Shown here piece by piece: positions 2,591 through 25,968 of a stretch of DNA of 28,642 nt. The DNA comes from an uncultured Gammaproteobacteria bacterium (GTDB lineage Bacteria; Pseudomonadota; Gammaproteobacteria; Tethybacterales; CBDBMS01): assembly GCA_964654265.1 (NCBI GenBank), contig CAZZIL010000360.1, positions 1 through 28,642 on the forward strand, written 5' to 3'. A program made the position numbers and the translations under genes. The notes beneath the pieces were generated by a model. That model was not told where the DNA came from, ran no database searches, and saw nothing but the letters and a program-made list of their open reading frames with translations. Every line of letters begins with the position of its first letter. Within the stretch, counting starts at the first letter, position 1.

Positions 2591-4000
2591 ATGCCTGCGC
2601 AGACGCTGTACGACAAGATCTGGGAGCGCCACGTCGTCGAGCCGGTCGACGGCGGGACGGTGCTGCTCTACATCGACCGCCACCTGGTGCACGAGGTGAC
2701 GAGCCCGCAGGCGTTCGAGGGGCTGAGGCTCGCCGGCCGCGGCATGTGGCGCACCGACACCACGCTGGCGGTGCCGGACCACAACGTGCCGACGCGGGAC
2801 CGCTCCGAGATCGCAAACCCCGAGTCGCGGCTTCAGGTCGAGACCTTGGGCGCGAACTGCGCCGACTTCGGGGTCGAGCTGTTCGACCTGAGGGACGTCC
2901 GCCAGGGGATCGTCCACGTGATCGGCCCGGAGCAGGGGCTGACGCTTCCGGGCACGACCATCGTGTGCGGCGACTCGCACACCAGCACCCACGGCGCGTT
3001 CGGCGCCTTGGCGCTCGGCATCGGCACCTCGGACGTCGAGCACGTGTTCGCGACCCAGTGCATCCTGGCGCGCAAGTCCCGCTCGCTCAAGGTCGACATC
3101 AACGGCGCCTTGAGGCCCGGGGTCGTCGCCAAGGACGTGATCCTCCACGTCATCGGGCGGATCGGCACGGCCGGCGGCACCGGCCACGTCATCGAGTACG
3201 CCGGGGACACGGTGCGCGCGGCCTCGATGGAGGGGCGCATGACCATCTGCAACATGTCGATCGAGGCCGGCGCGCGCGCCGGGATGGTGGCGGTCGACGA
3301 CAAGACGCTCGCGCACCTGGAGCGGTGCCCGCGCGCGCCCAGGGGGAGCGACTTCGGGCGCGCGGCCGAGTACTGGTCGACCCTGTCGAGCGACGACGGC
3401 GCCCGCTTCGACCGGGTGGTCGCGATTGACGCGTCCGCGATCCGGCCGCAGGTCTCGTGGGGGACCAGCCCCGAGATGGTCGTCGACGTCGGCGCGCGCC
3501 TCCCGGACCCCGACGCGGAGGAGTCGCCCGCCAAGCGCGAGGGGATGCGCCGCGCGTACGAGTACATGGGGCTGGCCCCGGGGATCCCGGTGCAGGACAT
3601 CGCGCTCGACAAGGTGTTCATCGGGTCGTGCACCAACGCGCGCATCGAGGACCTGCGCGCGGCCGCCCGGATCGTCGAGGGGCGGAGGGTCGCGCCCAAC
3701 ATCCGCCAGGCGCTGGTCGTCCCCGGCTCCGGGCTCGTCCGCCGCCAGGCGGAGGACGAGGGGCTCGACCGCGTGTTCCGCGACGCCGGCTTCGAGTGGC
3801 GCGAGCCCGGATGCTCGATGTGCCTCGGCATGAACGACGACCGGATGGGGCCCGGCGAGCGTTGCGCGTCGACGTCGAACCGCAACTTCGAGGGGCGCCA
3901 GGGCTACAGGTCGCGCACCCACCTGGTCAGCCCCCCGATGGCCGCGGCCGCCGCCGTCGCCGGGCACTTCGTCGACGTCTGCGAGGAGTTCCCCCACTGA
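2591..4000 (+). CDS. leuC: 3-isopropylmalate dehydratase large subunit
   Basis: [37 protein letters not shown]; Fe-S ligand motifs FIGSCTN and [10 protein letters not shown]; [20 protein letters not shown] upstream. Confidence 0.97.
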
Positions 4001-9951: not shown

Positions 9952-10935
9952 ATGGCACGAGCTGACTTGCTACTGAACTTGGTCAAGGCCGGGACACGCG
10001 GCGACCAGGCGCAGTTTCAGCGGACCGTCGAGGCGCTGGTAGTCGATGAGCGCGCCAAGAAGCACGACGTCTTGGCGGATCGGTTGCTTGCCCAGATTCG
10101 CCGGGACGTGAACGGGCAGTCTAGCTCCCCCAACGGGAGAAGCGTGCACCTGCCCGCCACCCCCTACACGATCGAACGGGCACCGGAAAGACACCTCTGC
10201 GACTTGGTGCTCCCGCCCGAGGTGGAGGAGGCTGTGTCCGGACTGATCGAGGAGCAACATCGCGGGGACCTGTTGCGCTCCTACAACCTCACGCCGCGCA
10301 ACCGGGTGCTACTAGCCGGCCCCCCGGGCAACGGGAAGACATCGCTCACCGAGGCTATCGCCGACGCGCTGCACGTCCCCCTCCTGACAGTCCGTTACGA
10401 TTCGGTGATCGCAAGCTACCTTGGCGAGACCGCCCAACGCATCGGCCAAGTCTTCGAGCATGCCAGGTCGAGACGTTGTGTCCTGTTCTTCGATGAGTTC
10501 GACGCGATCGCAAAAGAGCGGGGAGACCCGCGCGAAACCGGGGAGATCAAGCGCGTGGTCAGCTCCCTGCTACTGCAGGTCGACGACCTTCCGAGCCATG
10601 TCGTTGTTGTCGCCGCAAGCAACCATCCAGAGCTGCTGGACCGGGCCGTGTGGCGGCGATTCCAGCTGCGTCTGGAGCTGCCGATGCCCCAACAGACCCA
10701 AATCGAGAGATGGGTCCGCCACTTCGAGGAACACACTGGCCAAGCCTTGGGCATGCAACCGCGCACCATTGCCCAACAGCTCGTGGGCCTGAGCTTCAGC
10801 GAGGTGGAAGATGTCGGCACCGATATTCTGCGGAAGATAGTTCTCGGTCAACCCGGAACAGATCCCCGGAAAGTCGCCGAGCAGAGTCTGCGCCAGTGGA
10901 GAAAGCGTTTTCGCATCTCCGAGCAAGACCAGTAA
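9952..10935 (+). CDS. ietA: AAA+ ATPase, IetA-like partner of an S8 protease
   Basis: Walker A GPPGNGKT, Walker B LFFDEFD, sensor-1/arginine fingers AASNHPELLDRAVWRRF; helical N-terminus MARADLLLNLVKAG; 8 nt upstream of an S8 protease gene. Confidence 0.85.
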   Translation: MARADLLLNLVKAGTRGDQAQFQRTVEALVVDERAKKHDVLADRLLAQIRRDVNGQSSSPNGRSVHLPATPYTIERAPERHLCDLVLPPEVEEAVSGLIEEQHRGDLLRSYNLTPRNRVLLAGPPGNGKTSLTEAIADALHVPLLTVRYDSVIASYLGETAQRIGQVFEHARSRRCVLFFDEFDAIAKERGDPRETGEIKRVVSSLLLQVDDLPSHVVVVAASNHPELLDRAVWRRFQLRLELPMPQQTQIERWVRHFEEHTGQALGMQPRTIAQQLVGLSFSEVEDVGTDILRKIVLGQPGTDPRKVAEQSLRQWRKRFRISEQDQ

Positions 10936-10943
10936 GAACAGCC

Positions 10944-13463
10944 ATGGCCACTCACCCACATCTGATCTTTCCAAAGCCGGGGCAAACCGTAGCACCCTCA
11001 CGTAGGGGTGGCGGGGACGTCAAGACCCCGACTCCCCAAGAACAAGGGAAACGACTTTCGCCAAGACTTGCGCATCTGGCAAGAGTCTTGGAACAAAAGC
11101 GCCTTGCCCTGAAGGACACATCGTTGGGACAAGAGCCGCATGAAGTGCTAGTGGTGGAGACGCGGGGCCCACCGCAAAAATTCATTGCGGCCGCAAAAAT
11201 GCTCGGATTTGGATGGCTCACGGAGGAGAGGCTGGAGGAAAAAATGCCCCCCGAACATGGTTTCGAGGCGGAATCCCGATCGCCCAAGAGAAGGACAAAA
11301 GGCCCGCCAAGAAAATTGTTCGGGCACCTCTATTTTGTTCTGGCAAACCGGACCGCCCTGGAGCAATTGCGCAAATTGTTTAAGCAGTGGGAGGAAACCC
11401 CGAAAATGAAATTTCCGCGCGGGATGGGTAAGCTCAAGGGTTTGTTTGTGCATGCCTACGACATCCGCTACTGGAGTGAGAAAGACCGCTTGCGGAGCAA
11501 CGGCTTCTTTAAAGACTGCGTAGGGCGCGCAGAGCACAAAGAGGATCGGTATCCCTTTGATGCAGAGCTTTGGTTCAAGCGAGATCCAAAAGAACGCCAA
11601 AAGATCGAAGCCGAGTTCATTAGAACCGTCAGGCAGCACGGCGGGACCATAACCGGACAAAGTGTCTTGTCTGATATCGCATACCATGGCATACTTGGGG
11701 ATGTCCCGAGCGCGATATTCGGGGACATGACAAACTTTGAGCGACACCCAATTTTCCAATGCCACAGCATTCGGTTCTTTGAAGCTGTCACAAAATGTTC
11801 TATCCCCTACCCCGGTGATACAGCAGGCGCAGAACCACTGGATTTTCACAAAACCAAGCCCCCAGATCTCCCTCCAGTCGTGGCCCTAATGGATGGGATG
11901 CCTCTGCAAAAGCACAGCTGCCTAGAAGGCCGAATCGAGATCATAGATCCCGATGATCTCCAAAGCGATAGTGATCCTAACACACGGAAGCACGGGACTG
12001 CCATGGCTTCGCTGATTTGTCACGGGGACCTAAACCTAGACGAAAAACCCATAAGGCAGATGCTGTGTGCTCTGCCAATCCTAAGGGCAAGACCCACCCT
12101 CAATGGCACAATCGAGGAAATTCCTGAGGGCCGTCTGATTGTAGACCAGATGCACCAGGCAGTGCGTCGTTTGAACGAATCCGCGCCGTCCATTCGCGTG
12201 GTGAATCTGTCAGTTTGCGATCCCCGAAGACCATTTGCACGGGAAATTAGTCCATGGGCGCGATTGTTGGACTGGCTTTCATACGAAAAAGACATTCTTT
12301 TCCTAGTGAGCGCAGGGAATTGCGACGTTTCTGTGTCACGAGACACAGGGACACAGCTTCCCCTTTCGGACTTAGACTGTTCGATTGCAAGCATCGTCCA
12401 ACATCCAGCGGACCGAAGAATCCTTGCACCAGCGGAAACTGTCAACGGTCTAACTGTGGGAGCAATCCAAACCGATTCGACGTTGTTTGATTATCAGAAG
12501 ACATATCTCACTGATCCATTTGAGAACCTGCGACTCCCAGGGCTCTATAGCGCACACGGCCCGGGATACCGCAAGGCGGTCAAGCCAGATATTTTTCTCC
12601 CCGGAGGGCGGGAACTATATGATGACCGTAAAACAGAACTCCGAACCAGTCAAACTCGGTTAGTTGGACAGAGGGTCGCCACTCCAGGTCATCTGCACGG
12701 GGGATTGACCGGTACTCGTCTCGAAATCGGCACTAGCAATGCCACCGCCCTAGCTGCTCGAAGCGCATGTTGTCTTCATGAAACGCTGAGCCTGTTGCGA
12801 GAACAAAACCATCAAGCACCATCACCAGAGTACGACACCGTTTTGCTTAAGACCCTTCTCGTCCATGGATCTGGTAGAAAACATTTTCCCCGGCACCAAG
12901 AAATCTTTGCGGAACATGGGGGGAAGCTCTCCCTAGAGCAACTTGGATATTATTTGGGATACGGAGAATTGGAGACTCCATCCGTGCAGACATGCACGGC
13001 CACACGTGTCACCGTATTGGGGTTCGGCTCTCTAAAGAACAAAATGGCACATTCTTTCTCCTTCCCATTTCCTCGAATTGTCTCCGATTCCAATCTGTCA
13101 CCCAGACTAATTGTGACCCTTGCTTGGCTCACCCCGATCAATCCGGAGAACCAAGAATACCGAGTTGCCAAGCTGTGGTTTCAGATTTCTGGCATGGAGG
13201 ATAACGACCTCTCGCGCGTGCGCACTGACCAGTATATGGCACAGCGAGGAACTGTCCAGCACGAAATATTTAATGTCAAGAGTGCCGTTGACCTTCGGGA
13301 AAGAAGCACAGCTGATATTCTCGTATGTTGTCGTGAAGAAGCAGGGAAGATCACGAAACCAATCCGGTACGGCCTAGCGGTTACTTTTGAGATCAGCCCT
13401 GAGTCCGAAATCGAGATCTACCAAGAAATCAAAGAGCGTCTCGAGGTCACTGTTGGGACGTAA
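10944..13463 (+). CDS. ietS: subtilisin-like S8 serine protease, IetS-like (839 aa)
   Basis: Intact catalytic set: VALMDG (Asp, 11892), KHGTAMAS (His, 11991), LVSAGN (oxyanion Asn), DRRILAPAE, GTSNATA (Ser, 12735). No signal peptide. ATG 10944 follows the ATPase stop. Confidence 0.88.
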   Translation: MATHPHLIFPKPGQTVAPSRRGGGDVKTPTPQEQGKRLSPRLAHLARVLEQKRLALKDTSLGQEPHEVLVVETRGPPQKFIAAAKMLGFGWLTEERLEEKMPPEHGFEAESRSPKRRTKGPPRKLFGHLYFVLANRTALEQLRKLFKQWEETPKMKFPRGMGKLKGLFVHAYDIRYWSEKDRLRSNGFFKDCVGRAEHKEDRYPFDAELWFKRDPKERQKIEAEFIRTVRQHGGTITGQSVLSDIAYHGILGDVPSAIFGDMTNFERHPIFQCHSIRFFEAVTKCSIPYPGDTAGAEPLDFHKTKPPDLPPVVALMDGMPLQKHSCLEGRIEIIDPDDLQSDSDPNTRKHGTAMASLICHGDLNLDEKPIRQMLCALPILRARPTLNGTIEEIPEGRLIVDQMHQAVRRLNESAPSIRVVNLSVCDPRRPFAREISPWARLLDWLSYEKDILFLVSAGNCDVSVSRDTGTQLPLSDLDCSIASIVQHPADRRILAPAETVNGLTVGAIQTDSTLFDYQKTYLTDPFENLRLPGLYSAHGPGYRKAVKPDIFLPGGRELYDDRKTELRTSQTRLVGQRVATPGHLHGGLTGTRLEIGTSNATALAARSACCLHETLSLLREQNHQAPSPEYDTVLLKTLLVHGSGRKHFPRHQEIFAEHGGKLSLEQLGYYLGYGELETPSVQTCTATRVTVLGFGSLKNKMAHSFSFPFPRIVSDSNLSPRLIVTLAWLTPINPENQEYRVAKLWFQISGMEDNDLSRVRTDQYMAQRGTVQHEIFNVKSAVDLRERSTADILVCCREEAGKITKPIRYGLAVTFEISPESEIEIYQEIKERLEVTVGT

Positions 13464-13467
13464 CCGC

Positions 13468-13489
13468 GCCGGACCTCCACAAATCCGGC
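13468..13489 (+). terminator. possible terminator hairpin after the S8 gene
   Basis: GCCGGA-N10-TCCGGC, 4 nt after the TAA; poor U-tract. Confidence 0.3.
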
Positions 13490-13701
13490 TGTCAAGGCAA
13501 GATCACCTAACACCCAAGAGTGCTTTGGGTCCATGTAGACAAACCAAGTGTTGCGTCGGCGGATTGGCGTTTCCTCGGAGTGCACGGTTTCATGTCCGGA
13601 CCTGCCGCTACGGTGCCAACCCCCAAGAACAAGTTCACGCCAGACAAGCCCGGACCTGTAGGGGAATCCCAAGACACGCATGAGGGGCACTGACCCGCGT
13701 C

Positions 13702-13761
13702 TAGGCTTTCGGGGACGCGCATCGCACAAATCCGCGCCCCTCCGCCGGTTAGGCTTTCGGG
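13702..13761 (+). repeat. 12-bp direct repeat TAGGCTTTCGGG x2 (period 48)
   Basis: Exact copies at 13702-13713 and 13750-13761, directly upstream of the TIR gene -35 box. Confidence 0.8.
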
Positions 13762-13778
13762 CACACCATCCTCCACGC

Positions 13779-13807
13779 TTGACCTCTTGGCCAGGCTCTG
13801 CTATACT
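13779..13807 (+). promoter_or_regulatory. near-consensus sigma70 promoter for the TIR gene
   Basis: -35 TTGACC (13779-13784), 17-nt spacer ending in TGC, -10 TATACT (13802-13807); GGAG/AGGA before GTG 13827. Confidence 0.75.
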
Positions 13808-13826
13808 ATCGGCGGAGTCAGGAAAA

Positions 13827-14459
13827 GTGAGACACAAGGTCTTCATCAGTCACCACCGCGAGGCGGACCAAGGCCACAAGGACCGACTGGTCGGCTTGGG
13901 GGCCGGTCTTTTCTTCATTGACCACCCGGTCTCGGACGGAGACATCCCCGACCACTGGGACACCGAGAGGATCCGGGAAAGGATCAGGATCGATCACCTT
14001 CAGGACTCCTCGGTGACGATCGTTCTCGTTGATCCTGGCGCGTGGCGACGAAAGCATGTCGACTGGGAGATCTACGCCAGCATGCGTCGCGCCCCCGGGA
14101 CTGAGCGCTCCGGGATTCTGGTCAGCGCCTTGCCGGAGGTGTACGTTCCCACCGACTACGAGATCGAGCGGAGGGTGGCGGAGTATCGGTCCATCGGCGG
14201 TGTCACGGAAAAGATGGCGGCCCTGTGGCGAATGTGGGCGAACCACATGCCGTGGGTGCCGGACCGGATCATCGACAATCTGGTCGAGGAGGATACCCAG
14301 GTTATCTTCTACGAGCTTCCCGACCTCGACAGGCACAGGCTTGAGGAGCAGGTCGAGTATGCCTACAGGACCCGCACCACGGGGAACTTCACCTTCCGCC
14401 GGGACCTGAAGAGACAGGACACCGAGCCTGCCCCCGGGTTGGTCGCGGACTGCTGGTAG
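13827..14459 (+). CDS. TIR-like domain protein (DUF1863/MTH538, Thoeris ThsB-like), 210 aa
   Basis: HKVFISHH, IRIDHLQDSSVTIVLV, RKHVDWEI (putative catalytic Glu81, codon 14067), PDRIIDN. GTG start supported by the promoter and RBS. Confidence 0.85.
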   Translation: MRHKVFISHHREADQGHKDRLVGLGAGLFFIDHPVSDGDIPDHWDTERIRERIRIDHLQDSSVTIVLVDPGAWRRKHVDWEIYASMRRAPGTERSGILVSALPEVYVPTDYEIERRVAEYRSIGGVTEKMAALWRMWANHMPWVPDRIIDNLVEEDTQVIFYELPDLDRHRLEEQVEYAYRTRTTGNFTFRRDLKRQDTEPAPGLVADCW

Positions 14460-25313: not shown

Positions 25314-25384
25314 CGGCCGGCCCGTCCCGCTCCGCTCGCGCCCATGGGGGTATTTTCGCCGAAAACCGGCGCCGGCGCGAAACT

Positions 25385-25393
25385 TGGTAGAAT
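25385..25393 (+). promoter_or_regulatory. extended -10 promoter (TGg-TAGAAT) of the tRNA Gly-Cys-Leu operon
   Basis: TGGTAGAAT 25 nt before tRNA-Gly. Confidence 0.6.
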
Positions 25394-25418: not shown

Positions 25419-25494
25419 GCGGGAATAGCTCAGTTGGTAGAGCGCAACCTTGCCAAGGTTGAGGTCGCGAGTTCGAGCCTCGTTTCCCGCTCCA
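25419..25494 (+). tRNA. tRNA-Gly(GCC)
   Basis: GCGGGAA...TTCCCGC-T-CCA; loop TTGCCAA; 76 nt. Confidence 0.97.
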
Positions 25495-25538
25495 GGCCCG
25501 GGGCCGGGGCGCGCGCCGGCGCGGCGGGCGCCGGCCCT

Positions 25539-25612
25539 GGCGGGATGGCAGAGTGGTCATGCAGCGGCCTGCAAAGCCGTGCACGCCGGTTCGATTCCGA
25601 CTCCCGCCTCCA
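25539..25612 (+). tRNA. tRNA-Cys(GCA)
   Basis: GGCGGGA...TCCCGCC-T-CCA; loop CTGCAAA; 74 nt. Confidence 0.95.
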
Positions 25613-25640
25613 GGACGAGCGGCGGCCGACGTTGAGCGGC

Positions 25641-25936
25641 GCGGATGTGGTGGAACGGTAGACACAGCAGACTTGAGCGAAAACTTGAGTGCCGCCCGGG
25701 AAACCGGGCGTGCAGAACCGCCCAAACTCGGGGAAAGCTGTGCCGAGAGGCTGCCAATCCCGAGCCAAGCCCGAGAGGGAAGGTGTAGAGACTAGACGGG
25801 CGGCGCCTACAGCCGGGCGTGTCCGGCCAGGGCGAAGGGATAGTCCAGGCCACAAACGAAAGGCGGCGAAAGCCGTGGTGGCACGAAAATCTGCTTGGCC
25901 GCGAGGCCAGTGCGGGTTCGACTCCCGCCATCCGCA
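25641..25936 (+). tRNA. leuZ: tRNA-Leu(TAA), interrupted by a group I intron (exons 25641-25674 and 25886-25936)
   Basis: Joined exons give acceptor stem GCGGATG/CATCCGC-A, anticodon stem GCAGA/TCTGC with loop CT-TAA-AA, long variable arm TGGCC-GCGA-GGCCA and T-loop TTCGACT. Occupies the leuZ position after tRNA-Gly and tRNA-Cys. Confidence 0.93.
25675..25885 (+). ncRNA. self-splicing group I intron (IC3-like, 211 nt, no ORF)
   Basis: P1 with U25674-G25687 wobble at the 5' splice site; P2 GCCCGG-GAAA-CCGGGC; P3 CCGCCC(25718)/GGGCGG(25798); P4 CTCGGG(25727)/CCCGAG(25759); P7 GACTA(25790)/TAGTC(25841); GAAA-capped P9; terminal G25885. Confidence 0.93.
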
Positions 25937-25968
25937 CCCCCCTTGCCGCGGGGGTAGAATCCCCCGCC

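What the first reader, a model, noticed from the sequence alone, without database searches (positions are those of the whole stretch)
25641..25936. Compact Azoarcus-type group I ribozyme interrupting tRNA-Leu(UAA) in a proteobacterial Gly-Cys-Leu operon
A 211-nt insert sits between U34 and A35 of the anticodon, the same site as the cyanobacterial/plastid trnL(UAA) intron. All core pairings are readable: P1 with the U-G splice-site wobble, P2, P3, P4, P7, P9 and terminal G. The segments GAAGGTGTAGAGACTAGACGG and GAAGG.ATAGTCCAG match, as I recall it, the approximately 205-nt Azoarcus tRNA-Ile intron core. Such introns are only sporadically reported in proteobacterial tRNA-Leu. There is no homing endonuclease, so the mode of spread is unexplained. 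Its very high GC and small size make it a candidate stable minimal ribozyme, for example for RNA circularisation. Standard annotation could miss the tRNA, and the ORF track only shows spurious frames here.
Basis: partly seen in the sequence, partly recalled or inferred. Interest (0 to 1): 0.75.

Follow-up and report, generated by a model that had tools for sequence, protein, structure and literature searches.

The report
Ordinary self-splicing intron in tRNA-Leu
The only leucine tRNA(UAA) gene of this sponge-associated bacterium is interrupted by a real 211-base group I (self-splicing type) intron, but it belongs to a classical family found at this exact spot in many bacteria, so it is ordinary.

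Summary
Window 25641-25936 (+) is a tRNA-Leu(UAA) gene split between U34 and A35 by a 211-nt insert (25675-25885). The insert has U.G at the 5' splice site, a terminal G, and every group I helix from P1 to P9.

A profile built from 58 foreign tRNA-Leu introns, with the window left out, finds it at E 7.8e-48. The helices are supported by compensatory changes across 60 homologues. Rfam Intron_gpI gives only a partial, sub-threshold hit (35 bits; cut-off 50).

It belongs to the classical 'Leu.3Ug' IC3 class (cyanobacteria, plastids; Williams 2020).

It is not rare. About one family in ten of the window's own class has one. Earlier notes of this scan list 763 findings of this kind on other DNA.

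In the window's order only its genus carries it. Thirteen sister genomes have an uninterrupted gene in the same Gly-Cys-Leu-(redoxin)-ArgJ synteny.

A related second intron sits in tRNA-Thr(CGU) of the same genome. Splicing itself was not tested. Verdict: new member of a known kind, low interest.

The parts
25419..25494 (+). tRNA-Gly(GCC), first gene of the tRNA operon
   Evidence: ARAGORN; Rfam tRNA 69.5 bits
25539..25612 (+). tRNA-Cys(GCA), second gene of the operon
   Evidence: ARAGORN; Rfam tRNA 56.5 bits
25641..25674 (+). 5' exon of tRNA-Leu(UAA): acceptor, D arm, 5' anticodon stem, C32 U33 U34. U34 (25674) is the -1 U.
   Evidence: ARAGORN with intron search; spliced product folds as tRNA-Leu(taa)
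25675..25885 (+). Group I intron, 211 nt, subgroup IC3, class Leu.3Ug; no ORF
   Evidence: Rfam RF00028 partial hit; leave-out nhmmer E 7.8e-48; covariance model R1 214.7 bits, though the window was in that model
25671..25690 (+). P1 hairpin: 25671-25677 pairs with 25684-25690. Splice-site wobble is U25674.G25687.
   Evidence: Drawn; U.G in 60 of 60 homologues, neighbouring pairs covary; predicted independently by RNAalifold
25691..25713 (+). P2 with GAAA tetraloop L2 (25700-25703)
   Evidence: 8 of 9 pairs show compensatory changes
25718..25723 (+). P3 5' strand; pairs with 25798-25803
   Evidence: 99.7% of cells paired, 3 pairs with double changes. The 3' strand was partly fixed by my search pattern.
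25727..25764 (+). P4 (25727-25733 with 25758-25764) enclosing P5/P5a (25737-25744 with 25749-25754)
   Evidence: also the part matched by Rfam Intron_gpI
25765..25783 (+). P6/P6a hairpin with GAGA loop
25784..25797 (+). J6/7, P7 5' strand (25788-25794, bulged A25789) and J7/3. Part of the 21-nt window string 25780-25800, which is identical to the Azoarcus core.
   Evidence: (Aol6 row). P7 pairs with 25841-25846.
25798..25803 (+). P3 3' strand
25804..25834 (+). P8 with an internal loop (CCUACAG...CCAGGG) where most relatives have an 11-nt GAAA-receptor-like motif (CCUAAG...UAUGG)
25835..25846 (+). J8/7 (25835-25840) and P7 3' strand (25841-25846), presumed guanosine-binding helix
   Evidence: Invariant in A1 because my search pattern fixed it. 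A Leu(CAA) relative keeps P7 through two double changes.
25849..25882 (+). P9 (25849-25853 with 25878-25882) enclosing P9a hairpin 25864-25875 with GAAA loop (25868-25871). The P9.1 hairpin present in most relatives is missing here.
25885..25885 (+). Terminal (omega) G
   Evidence: G in all 84 delimited homologues, although delimitation required it
25886..25936 (+). 3' exon: A35 A36 A37 A38, 3' anticodon stem, long variable arm, T arm, acceptor, discriminator A. CCA is not encoded.
   Evidence: anticodon-stem pairs covary across homologues

Best explanation
This is a bona fide subgroup IC3 group I intron of the classical tRNA-Leu(UAA) class, 'Leu.3Ug'. It sits in the chromosomal, ancestral copy of the gene.

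Proposed mechanism:
- The Gly-Cys-Leu operon is transcribed as one precursor.
- The intron folds into the P1-P9 architecture.
- By analogy with Azoarcus, the GAAA loops of P2 and P9a probably dock on P8 and P5.
- A free guanosine bound in P7 attacks the bond after U34, which is held in the U.G wobble of P1.
- The terminal G (25885) then takes the guanosine site, and the 3' OH of U34 attacks the bond before A35.
- The exons join into the genome's only tRNA-Leu(UAA).

What is shown: homology, architecture, covariation, exon integrity, and an empty site in sister genomes. What is inferred: catalysis and splicing in vivo.

The intron has no endonuclease gene. It probably entered the lineage of this genus once, either by recombination with an intron-bearing allele or by reverse splicing. 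It has been inherited vertically since.
For: Boundaries and product:
- ARAGORN with intron search calls tRNA-Leu(taa) i(35,211); the joined exons give a canonical tRNA-Leu(UAA).
- It is the only tRNA-Leu(UAA) in the 91.7%-complete assembly.

Homology:
- Rfam Intron_gpI partial hit, E 3.3e-7 genome-wide.
- Leave-out profile hit, E 7.8e-48.
- 75-84% identity to 58 named bacterial tRNA-Leu introns.

Structure:
- My P1-P9 drawing is paired in 95.4% of cells across 60 homologues, against 30-42% when partners are slid by 1-3 columns.
- 41 of 67 pairs carry double changes, and 0 of 500 shuffles reach the observed values.
- RNAalifold on an alignment without the window gives the same helices.
- Between the window and its congener there are 6 double compensatory changes, and only 3 pairs are broken, all at helix ends.

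Catalytic joiners:
- The window strings spanning J6/7-P7-J7/3 (21 nt) and J8/7-P7' (15 nt) are 21/21 and 14/15 identical to the Azoarcus intron row in Williams' seed alignment.

Family assignment:
- Same site and layout as the Leu.3Ug seed rows.

Chromosomal context:
- Thirteen genomes of the order have an uninterrupted tRNA-Leu(UAA) in the same Gly-Cys-Leu-(redoxin)-ArgJ synteny.
- No integrase and no split half-genes were found.
Against: - No experimental or transcript evidence exists.
- The Rfam hit is partial and below the gathering score (35 against 50 bits).
- P7 and part of P3 are invariant in my alignment only because the search pattern fixed them. They add no covariation evidence.
- The P5 and P8 internal loops depart from the 11-nt receptor-like motif of most relatives, so the tertiary docking is uncertain.
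- UUA codons are very rare (0.13 per 1000 in long frames), so selection on this tRNA could be weak.
Confidence: 0.85

Rival explanations
1. The intron is real and is removed in vivo by the group I pathway, but it is not autonomous. It needs a protein chaperone or cofactor, as plastid trnL introns are generally held to need, and would not self-splice in vitro.
For: - Both putative tetraloop receptors (P5, P8) deviate from the motif seen in most relatives.
- The P9.1 hairpin is missing.
- From my own knowledge, not checked here: plastid tRNA-Leu introns of the same class do not self-splice in vitro, whereas Anabaena's does.
Against: - The core joiners are nearly identical to Azoarcus, a robust self-splicer.
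- Helices are G+C-rich and intact.
- The same P8 variant (CCUACAG...CCAGGG) recurs in unrelated homologues such as L041, L099 and L127, which suggests a working alternative.
Confidence: 0.1
2. The intron or the tRNA gene is decaying. Because UUA is almost unused in this 70% G+C genome, the gene is a dispensable relic and the insert no longer splices.
For: - UUA occurs at 0.13 per 1000 codons, in only 48 of 512 long frames.
- tRNA-Leu(CAA) is present for UUG.
- The gene does not encode CCA.
Against: - All helices, U.G, the terminal G and the core joiners are intact.
- There are 6 compensatory double changes against the congener.
- The exons fold as a perfect tRNA.
- 50 UUA codons still need a reader.
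Confidence: 0.04
3. The intron-bearing gene is a spare copy brought by an integrative element that targets tRNA-Leu(UAA), as earlier notes of this scan describe for other genomes. Alternatively, the contig is mis-binned from another organism.
For: - Earlier notes describe integrase-plus-intron-tRNA-Leu modules in many phyla.
- The nearest intron by identity is from an alphaproteobacterial MAG, at 83%.
- The exons are slightly closer to foreign intron-bearing genes (up to 85.9%) than to the order's uninterrupted genes (up to 81.2%).
Against: - The gene lies in the ancestral Gly-Cys-Leu-(redoxin)-ArgJ position shared with 13 order genomes.
- The flanks are RpiA, NUDIX, redoxin and ArgJ, with no integrase.
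- There are no half-genes of tRNA-Leu in the assembly.
- The congener G001 has the same arrangement on a 1.58-Mb contig.
- The exon comparison is too short to be decisive.
Confidence: 0.02

Closest known systems
[quoted passage not shown]
   Same: - Same host gene and same site (CUU / intron / AAAA).
- U.G at the 5' splice site, terminal G, and no ORF.
- Same helix layout, including a P9 that encloses a GAAA hairpin.
- Aligns along its whole length with the Leu.3Ug seed rows and with 58 named homologues at 75-84% identity.
   Different: - The host is a sponge-associated, probably gammaproteobacterial MAG, not a cyanobacterium.
- It is shorter than the family median (211 against 233 nt) because P9.1 is missing and P5 and P6 are short.
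- The P5 and P8 internal loops are variant.
Azoarcus sp. BH72 / A. olearius tRNA-Ile(CAU) intron (class Ile2.5Ug, about 205 nt, IC3; crystal structures exist)
   Same: - Same subgroup IC3 and similar size.
- GAAA loops on P2 and P9.
- The core strings GAAGGUGUAGAGACUAGACGG and GAAGG.AUAGUCCAG are shared, 21/21 and 14/15.
   Different: - Different tRNA and site (after U36 of tRNA-Ile2, not after U34 of tRNA-Leu).
- Azoarcus P9 is a single hairpin followed by a tail, whereas here P9 encloses a second hairpin.
- Azoarcus has canonical 11-nt receptors in P5 and P8.
tRNA-Leu(UAA) intron of a deep-subsurface gammaproteobacterium (Vepritskiy et al. 2002, J Bacteriol; cited from memory, the paper could not be fetched)
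   Same: A group I intron at the same site in a non-cyanobacterial, gammaproteobacterial tRNA-Leu(UAA).
   Different: I could not compare the sequences here.
Integrase-borne, intron-split replacement tRNA-Leu(UAA) genes
   Same: Same intron class in the same tRNA.
   Different: Here the gene is the resident chromosomal copy in conserved synteny. It has no integrase and no broken resident gene.

Membership tests
Group I intron | P1 helix pairing the 5' exon end with an internal guide, with a U.G wobble at the splice site | tested here: met
   U25674.G25687 lies within a 7-bp P1. U.G is present in 60 of 60 homologues and the flanking pairs covary.
Group I intron | Terminal (omega) G before the 3' splice site | tested here: met
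   G25885 is followed by AAAAUC. This is the only one of 8 possible loop positions with U(-1) and G(omega) together.
Group I intron | Conserved core: P3-P8 and P4-P6 domains with the P3/P7 pseudoknot | tested here: met
   All helices can be drawn. 95.4% of cells are paired against 30-42% for slid controls, and 41 pairs show double changes. RNAalifold agrees for the nested helices. P7 itself is invariant in my set because the pattern fixed it; a Leu(CAA) relative supports it through double changes.
Group I intron | Score at or above Rfam RF00028's gathering threshold | tested here: not met
   35 bits against 50, covering model positions 48-158 only. Williams 2020 reports that none of the 12 Rfam seeds was bacterial and worked at 18-20 bits.
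Group I intron | Guanosine-dependent self-splicing | not testable with these tools
Subgroup IC3 (bacterial tRNA introns) | Small core without P5abc; P2 and P9 capped by GNRA loops | tested here: met
   P5 is a short hairpin. L2 GAAA lies at 25700-25703 and L9a GAAA at 25868-25871.
Subgroup IC3 (bacterial tRNA introns) | 11-nt-type tetraloop receptors in P5 and P8 | tested here: inconclusive
   Most relatives carry CCUAAG...UAUGG-like loops. The window has GCUGUG...CUGC in P5 and CCUACAG...CCAGGG in P8.
Leu.3Ug class (classical tRNA-Leu(UAA) intron) | Inserted between U34 and A35 of tRNA-Leu(UAA) | tested here: met
Leu.3Ug class (classical tRNA-Leu(UAA) intron) | Full-length homology to other members | tested here: met
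   The leave-out nhmmer profile covers 25668-25893 at E 7.8e-48.
Azoarcus tRNA-Ile lineage (Ile2.5Ug) | Inserted after U36 of tRNA-Ile(CAU) | tested here: not met
   The host is tRNA-Leu(UAA) and the site is 34/35. The P9 layout also differs.
Element-borne replacement tRNA-Leu module | Adjacent integrase and a disrupted resident tRNA-Leu(UAA) | tested here: not met
   Pfam scans of the flanking ORFs find no integrase. Synteny is conserved and no half-genes exist in the assembly.

The most novel reading that the evidence does not exclude
The window's genus took up two related ORF-less IC3 introns that the rest of its order lacks. One is in tRNA-Leu(UAA). The other is in tRNA-Thr(CGU), possibly made by ectopic transposition (reverse splicing) of a Leu-type intron.

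In this genome the Thr intron's splice-site pair reads U-A rather than U.G. That would make it a natural test of the wobble requirement. Together with the thirteen syntenic empty sites, the pair would give a clean case of endonuclease-free intron invasion.
Probability: 0.2. Interest if true: 0.4.

Novelty: new member of a known kind. Interest (0 to 1): 0.2.

Why it matters
For annotation, it matters a little. Default tRNA finders and the Rfam gathering threshold both miss the gene, so this genome would be scored as lacking tRNA-Leu(UAA). The tRNA-Thr(CGU) gene on contig C89 is missed in the same way.

For biology, it adds one more member to a family counted in thousands (Williams 2020) and noted hundreds of times by this scan.

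The useful by-products are two. One is a clean filled-site versus empty-site comparison within one order. The other is a second, rarer intron site in the same genome.

As a 'minimal stable ribozyme' it offers nothing beyond Azoarcus and the several shorter homologues found here.

Tried and rejected
- RNA evidence: no RNA run holds more than 2 of 27 sampled words of the pre-tRNA. The DNA is held by sponge and coral-reef metagenomes.
I used an nhmmer leave-out profile instead.
- ARAGORN's intron mode gave about 30 other 'intron-bearing' tRNAs in this G+C-rich genome. A core regex, nhmmer and model R1 confirm only two. The rest I rejected as false positives.
- ARAGORN's call of tRNA-Pro(CGG) on C89 was rejected. 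Only the U36/A37 site gives U(-1) and G(omega), and the product is tRNA-Thr(CGU).
- The intron tree is poorly resolved, with 43 of 107 inner branches open, so no donor can be named.
- The exon-identity comparison, meant to distinguish intron insertion from whole-locus replacement, was inconclusive.
- The promoter/terminator scan found nothing by its criteria.
- The Vepritskiy 2002 paper could not be fetched.
- The organism's name is withheld. 'Gammaproteobacterial' is inferred only from the Gly-Cys-Leu operon, which among named loci occurs in Gammaproteobacteria.
- The weak 27-nt match in the unpublished genome G057 was ignored.

Full report
WHAT IS THERE

The + strand of 25419-25936 carries three tRNA genes. 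ARAGORN in default mode and the Rfam tRNA model find tRNA-Gly(GCC) at 25419-25494 and tRNA-Cys(GCA) at 25539-25612, and nothing after them.

Reading the sequence, 25641-25674 is the 5' part of a class II tRNA ending in the anticodon-loop bases C U U. 25886-25936 begins A A A A and completes the anticodon stem, a long variable arm, the T arm and the acceptor stem. Between the two parts lie 211 bases (25675-25885).

ARAGORN with intron search returns tRNA-Leu(taa) i(35,211). When the two exons are joined, it draws a canonical tRNA-Leu(UAA).

IS THE INSERT A GROUP I INTRON?

Rfam Intron_gpI matches 25716-25804, that is P3, P4, P5, P6, J6/7 and P3'. The score is 35 bits, E 2.4e-7 locally and 3.3e-7 over the whole 2.9-Mb assembly, but this is below the 50-bit gathering score. 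Williams (2020, bioRxiv 10.1101/2020.01.27.920355) notes that none of the 12 Rfam seeds was bacterial, and he worked at 18-20 bits for this reason.

For a test independent of the window, I collected tRNA-Leu introns from other bacteria (see the distribution section below). I built an nhmmer profile from 58 of them, leaving out the window and its congener, and searched the whole assembly. It hits 25668-25893 at E 7.8e-48 and one other place, on contig C89.

I then drew the structure on the window:
- P1 with U25674.G25687
- P2 with a GAAA loop
- P3
- P4
- P5
- P6
- P7 with a bulged A
- P8
- P9 enclosing a GAAA hairpin
- the exons' anticodon stem

Every pair drawn is a standard pair in the window.

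I counted this structure on an alignment of 60 homologues:
- 95.4% of cells are paired, against 30-42% when the 3' partners are slid by 1-3 columns.
- 41 of 67 pairs carry changes on both sides.
- None of 500 shuffles reaches the observed values.

RNAalifold, run on the alignment without the window and without my drawing, predicts the same P1, P2, P3, P4, P5, P6, P8, P9 and P9a helices and the anticodon stem. 43 of its 69 pairs are compensated.

One caveat applies. P7 and the 3' strand of P3 are invariant in this set because my search pattern fixed them, so they contribute nothing to the covariation evidence. P7 is supported instead by a tRNA-Leu(CAA) relative, where ACU/AGU has become AGC/GCU.

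Between the window and its congener G001 (about 79-84% identity, depending on the alignment), 6 pairs changed on both sides and stayed paired. Only 3 pairs, all at helix ends, are broken.

WHICH FAMILY?

Williams' seed alignment holds two Leu.3Ug rows with the same order of elements as the window. One of them, Ncf2, has near-identical strings. The same alignment holds the Azoarcus olearius tRNA-Ile row.

Azoarcus differs in two ways, however. Its intron follows U36 of tRNA-Ile(CAU), and its P9 is a single hairpin with a tail. The window instead has the Leu-type P9 that encloses a GCGGCGAAAGCCGU hairpin. The intron is therefore IC3 like Azoarcus but belongs to the classical tRNA-Leu(UAA) class.

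The short length comes from three features: no P9.1 hairpin, a 3-bp P6a, and a short P5.

Its G+C (65.9%) is below that of the window (70.0%).

HOW COMMON IS IT?

Mapping the exons in the manner of Williams (U before, G at the end, 7-nt loop) classified 110 sequences, eight of them from the window's own class rather than from the scan. 84 of the 110 are tRNA-Leu(UAA) introns of 202-332 nt, with a median of 233. The rest are in tRNA-Arg(CCU), Met/Ile2(CAU), Thr, Arg(UCU) and Leu(CAA).

The Leu cases by taxon:
- 49 Alphaproteobacteria
- 7 Betaproteobacteria (Burkholderia, Paraburkholderia, Rhodoferax)
- 3 Gammaproteobacteria (Halioglobus, Microbulbifer, Carnimonas)
- 11 Terriglobia
- single cases in Bdellovibrionia, Binatia and Saprospiria

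In a sample of one genome per family of the window's own class, my covariance model R1 hit 26 of 151 genomes. At least 12 of the 150 other genomes have a tRNA-Leu(UAA) intron at this site, mostly behind tRNA-Gly and tRNA-Cys.

Earlier notes of this scan list 763 findings of this kind in at least 687 genomes. The element is ordinary.

HISTORY IN THIS LINEAGE

Among the 19 species of the window's order, only the window's genus (G000 and G001) carries the intron.

Thirteen other genomes of the order have an uninterrupted tRNA-Leu(UAA) directly after tRNA-Gly and tRNA-Cys. That gene is followed by the same redoxin and/or ArgJ genes as in the window.

The window's flanks are RpiA, a NUDIX protein, a redoxin, ArgJ and a DUF815 ATPase. 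There is no integrase or endonuclease. No half-genes of tRNA-Leu exist elsewhere in the assembly.

This tests, and excludes here, the 'integrase-borne replacement gene' arrangement that earlier notes describe for other genomes.

The simplest history is one gain in the genus' ancestor. The donor cannot be named, because the tree is unresolved and the exon comparison is inconclusive.

One relative in the class (G150) has a 693-nt intron with an antisense 154-aa ORF carrying an HNH-like motif. Its scores are below Pfam's cut-offs, at 20.2 against 24.8 bits. Endonuclease-bearing forms may therefore exist in the wider family.

FUNCTION

This is the only tRNA-Leu(UAA) in the assembly, which is 91.7% complete. 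UUA is very rare: 0.13 per 1000 codons, in 48 of 512 long frames. Demand for the tRNA is low but not nil.

Three things argue that the RNA still splices: the intact architecture, the compensatory changes against the congener, and the near-identity of the catalytic joiners to a crystallised self-splicer. This is inference. No transcript data could be obtained.

SIDE FINDING

The same genome has a second, related intron of 239 nt on contig C89, at 2972-3210 (R1 101.5 bits). ARAGORN calls the host tRNA-Pro(CGG). However, only the site after U36 gives U(-1) and G(omega), and the joined exons fold as tRNA-Thr(CGU).

G001 has the same intron, 225 nt long and about 80% identical. It aligns with the Leu model from P2 to P9.

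Its P1 is odd. RNAfold pairs G35-C and then U36 with G in G001 but with A in this genome, and leaves the first intron base bulged.

No close relative of this intron was found in 400 sampled genomes of the phylum.

VERDICT

The claims of rarity, unusual compactness, high G+C and a puzzling mode of spread are not supported. This is a new member of a known kind, of low interest.

Noticed in passing
G000 contig C89:2936-3249 (locus L008:1338-1651); also G001:C3:661214-661455 (L136): A second, related IC3 intron in the same genome: 239 nt here, 225 nt in the congener. It splits tRNA-Thr(CGU) after U36, and ARAGORN miscalls the host as tRNA-Pro(CGG). Its splice-site pair reads U-A here but U.G in the congener, with the first intron base bulged. 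No close relative was found in 400 phylum genomes.
   Followed up: partly
L176:972-1752 (genome G150, same class): A 693-nt tRNA-Leu(UAA) intron at the same site carries an antisense 154-aa ORF (L176:1098-1562, minus strand) with an HNH-like motif. Its Pfam HNH_3 and HNH scores are below the cut-offs.
   Followed up: partly
L009:550-868 minus strand (genome G026): A tRNA-Leu(CAA) gene with a 234-nt intron preceded by C, not U. This is the 'Leu.3Cg' type of Williams 2020. Its P7 is kept through two double changes relative to the Leu(UAA) introns.
   Followed up: partly
L005:1382-1707 (G026), L006:1385-1724 minus strand (G040), L169 (G079), L108: Class I tRNAs with anticodon CAU (Met or Ile2) carry related introns right after U33. 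ARAGORN mislabels them as Ser, Leu or others. I could not draw a U.G splice-site pair for G040 and G026.
   Followed up: no
whole assembly G000: ARAGORN finds no tRNA-Thr, tRNA-Tyr or tRNA-Lys gene in the 549-contig assembly apart from the intron-split Thr(CGU). This probably reflects missing contigs rather than biology.
   Followed up: no
window 25384-25393 and 25953-25960; L136 just upstream of tRNA-Thr: A TGGTAGAAT / GGTAGAAT motif, resembling an extended -10 box, lies 26 nt before tRNA-Gly. It appears again after tRNA-Leu, before the redoxin gene, and also before the congener's tRNA-Thr. The consensus promoter scan did not call any of them.
   Followed up: no
window 9952-14459: Another first-stage note on this window describes an ATPase-subtilase pair followed by a TIR protein (a defence islet). 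I did not examine it.
   Followed up: no
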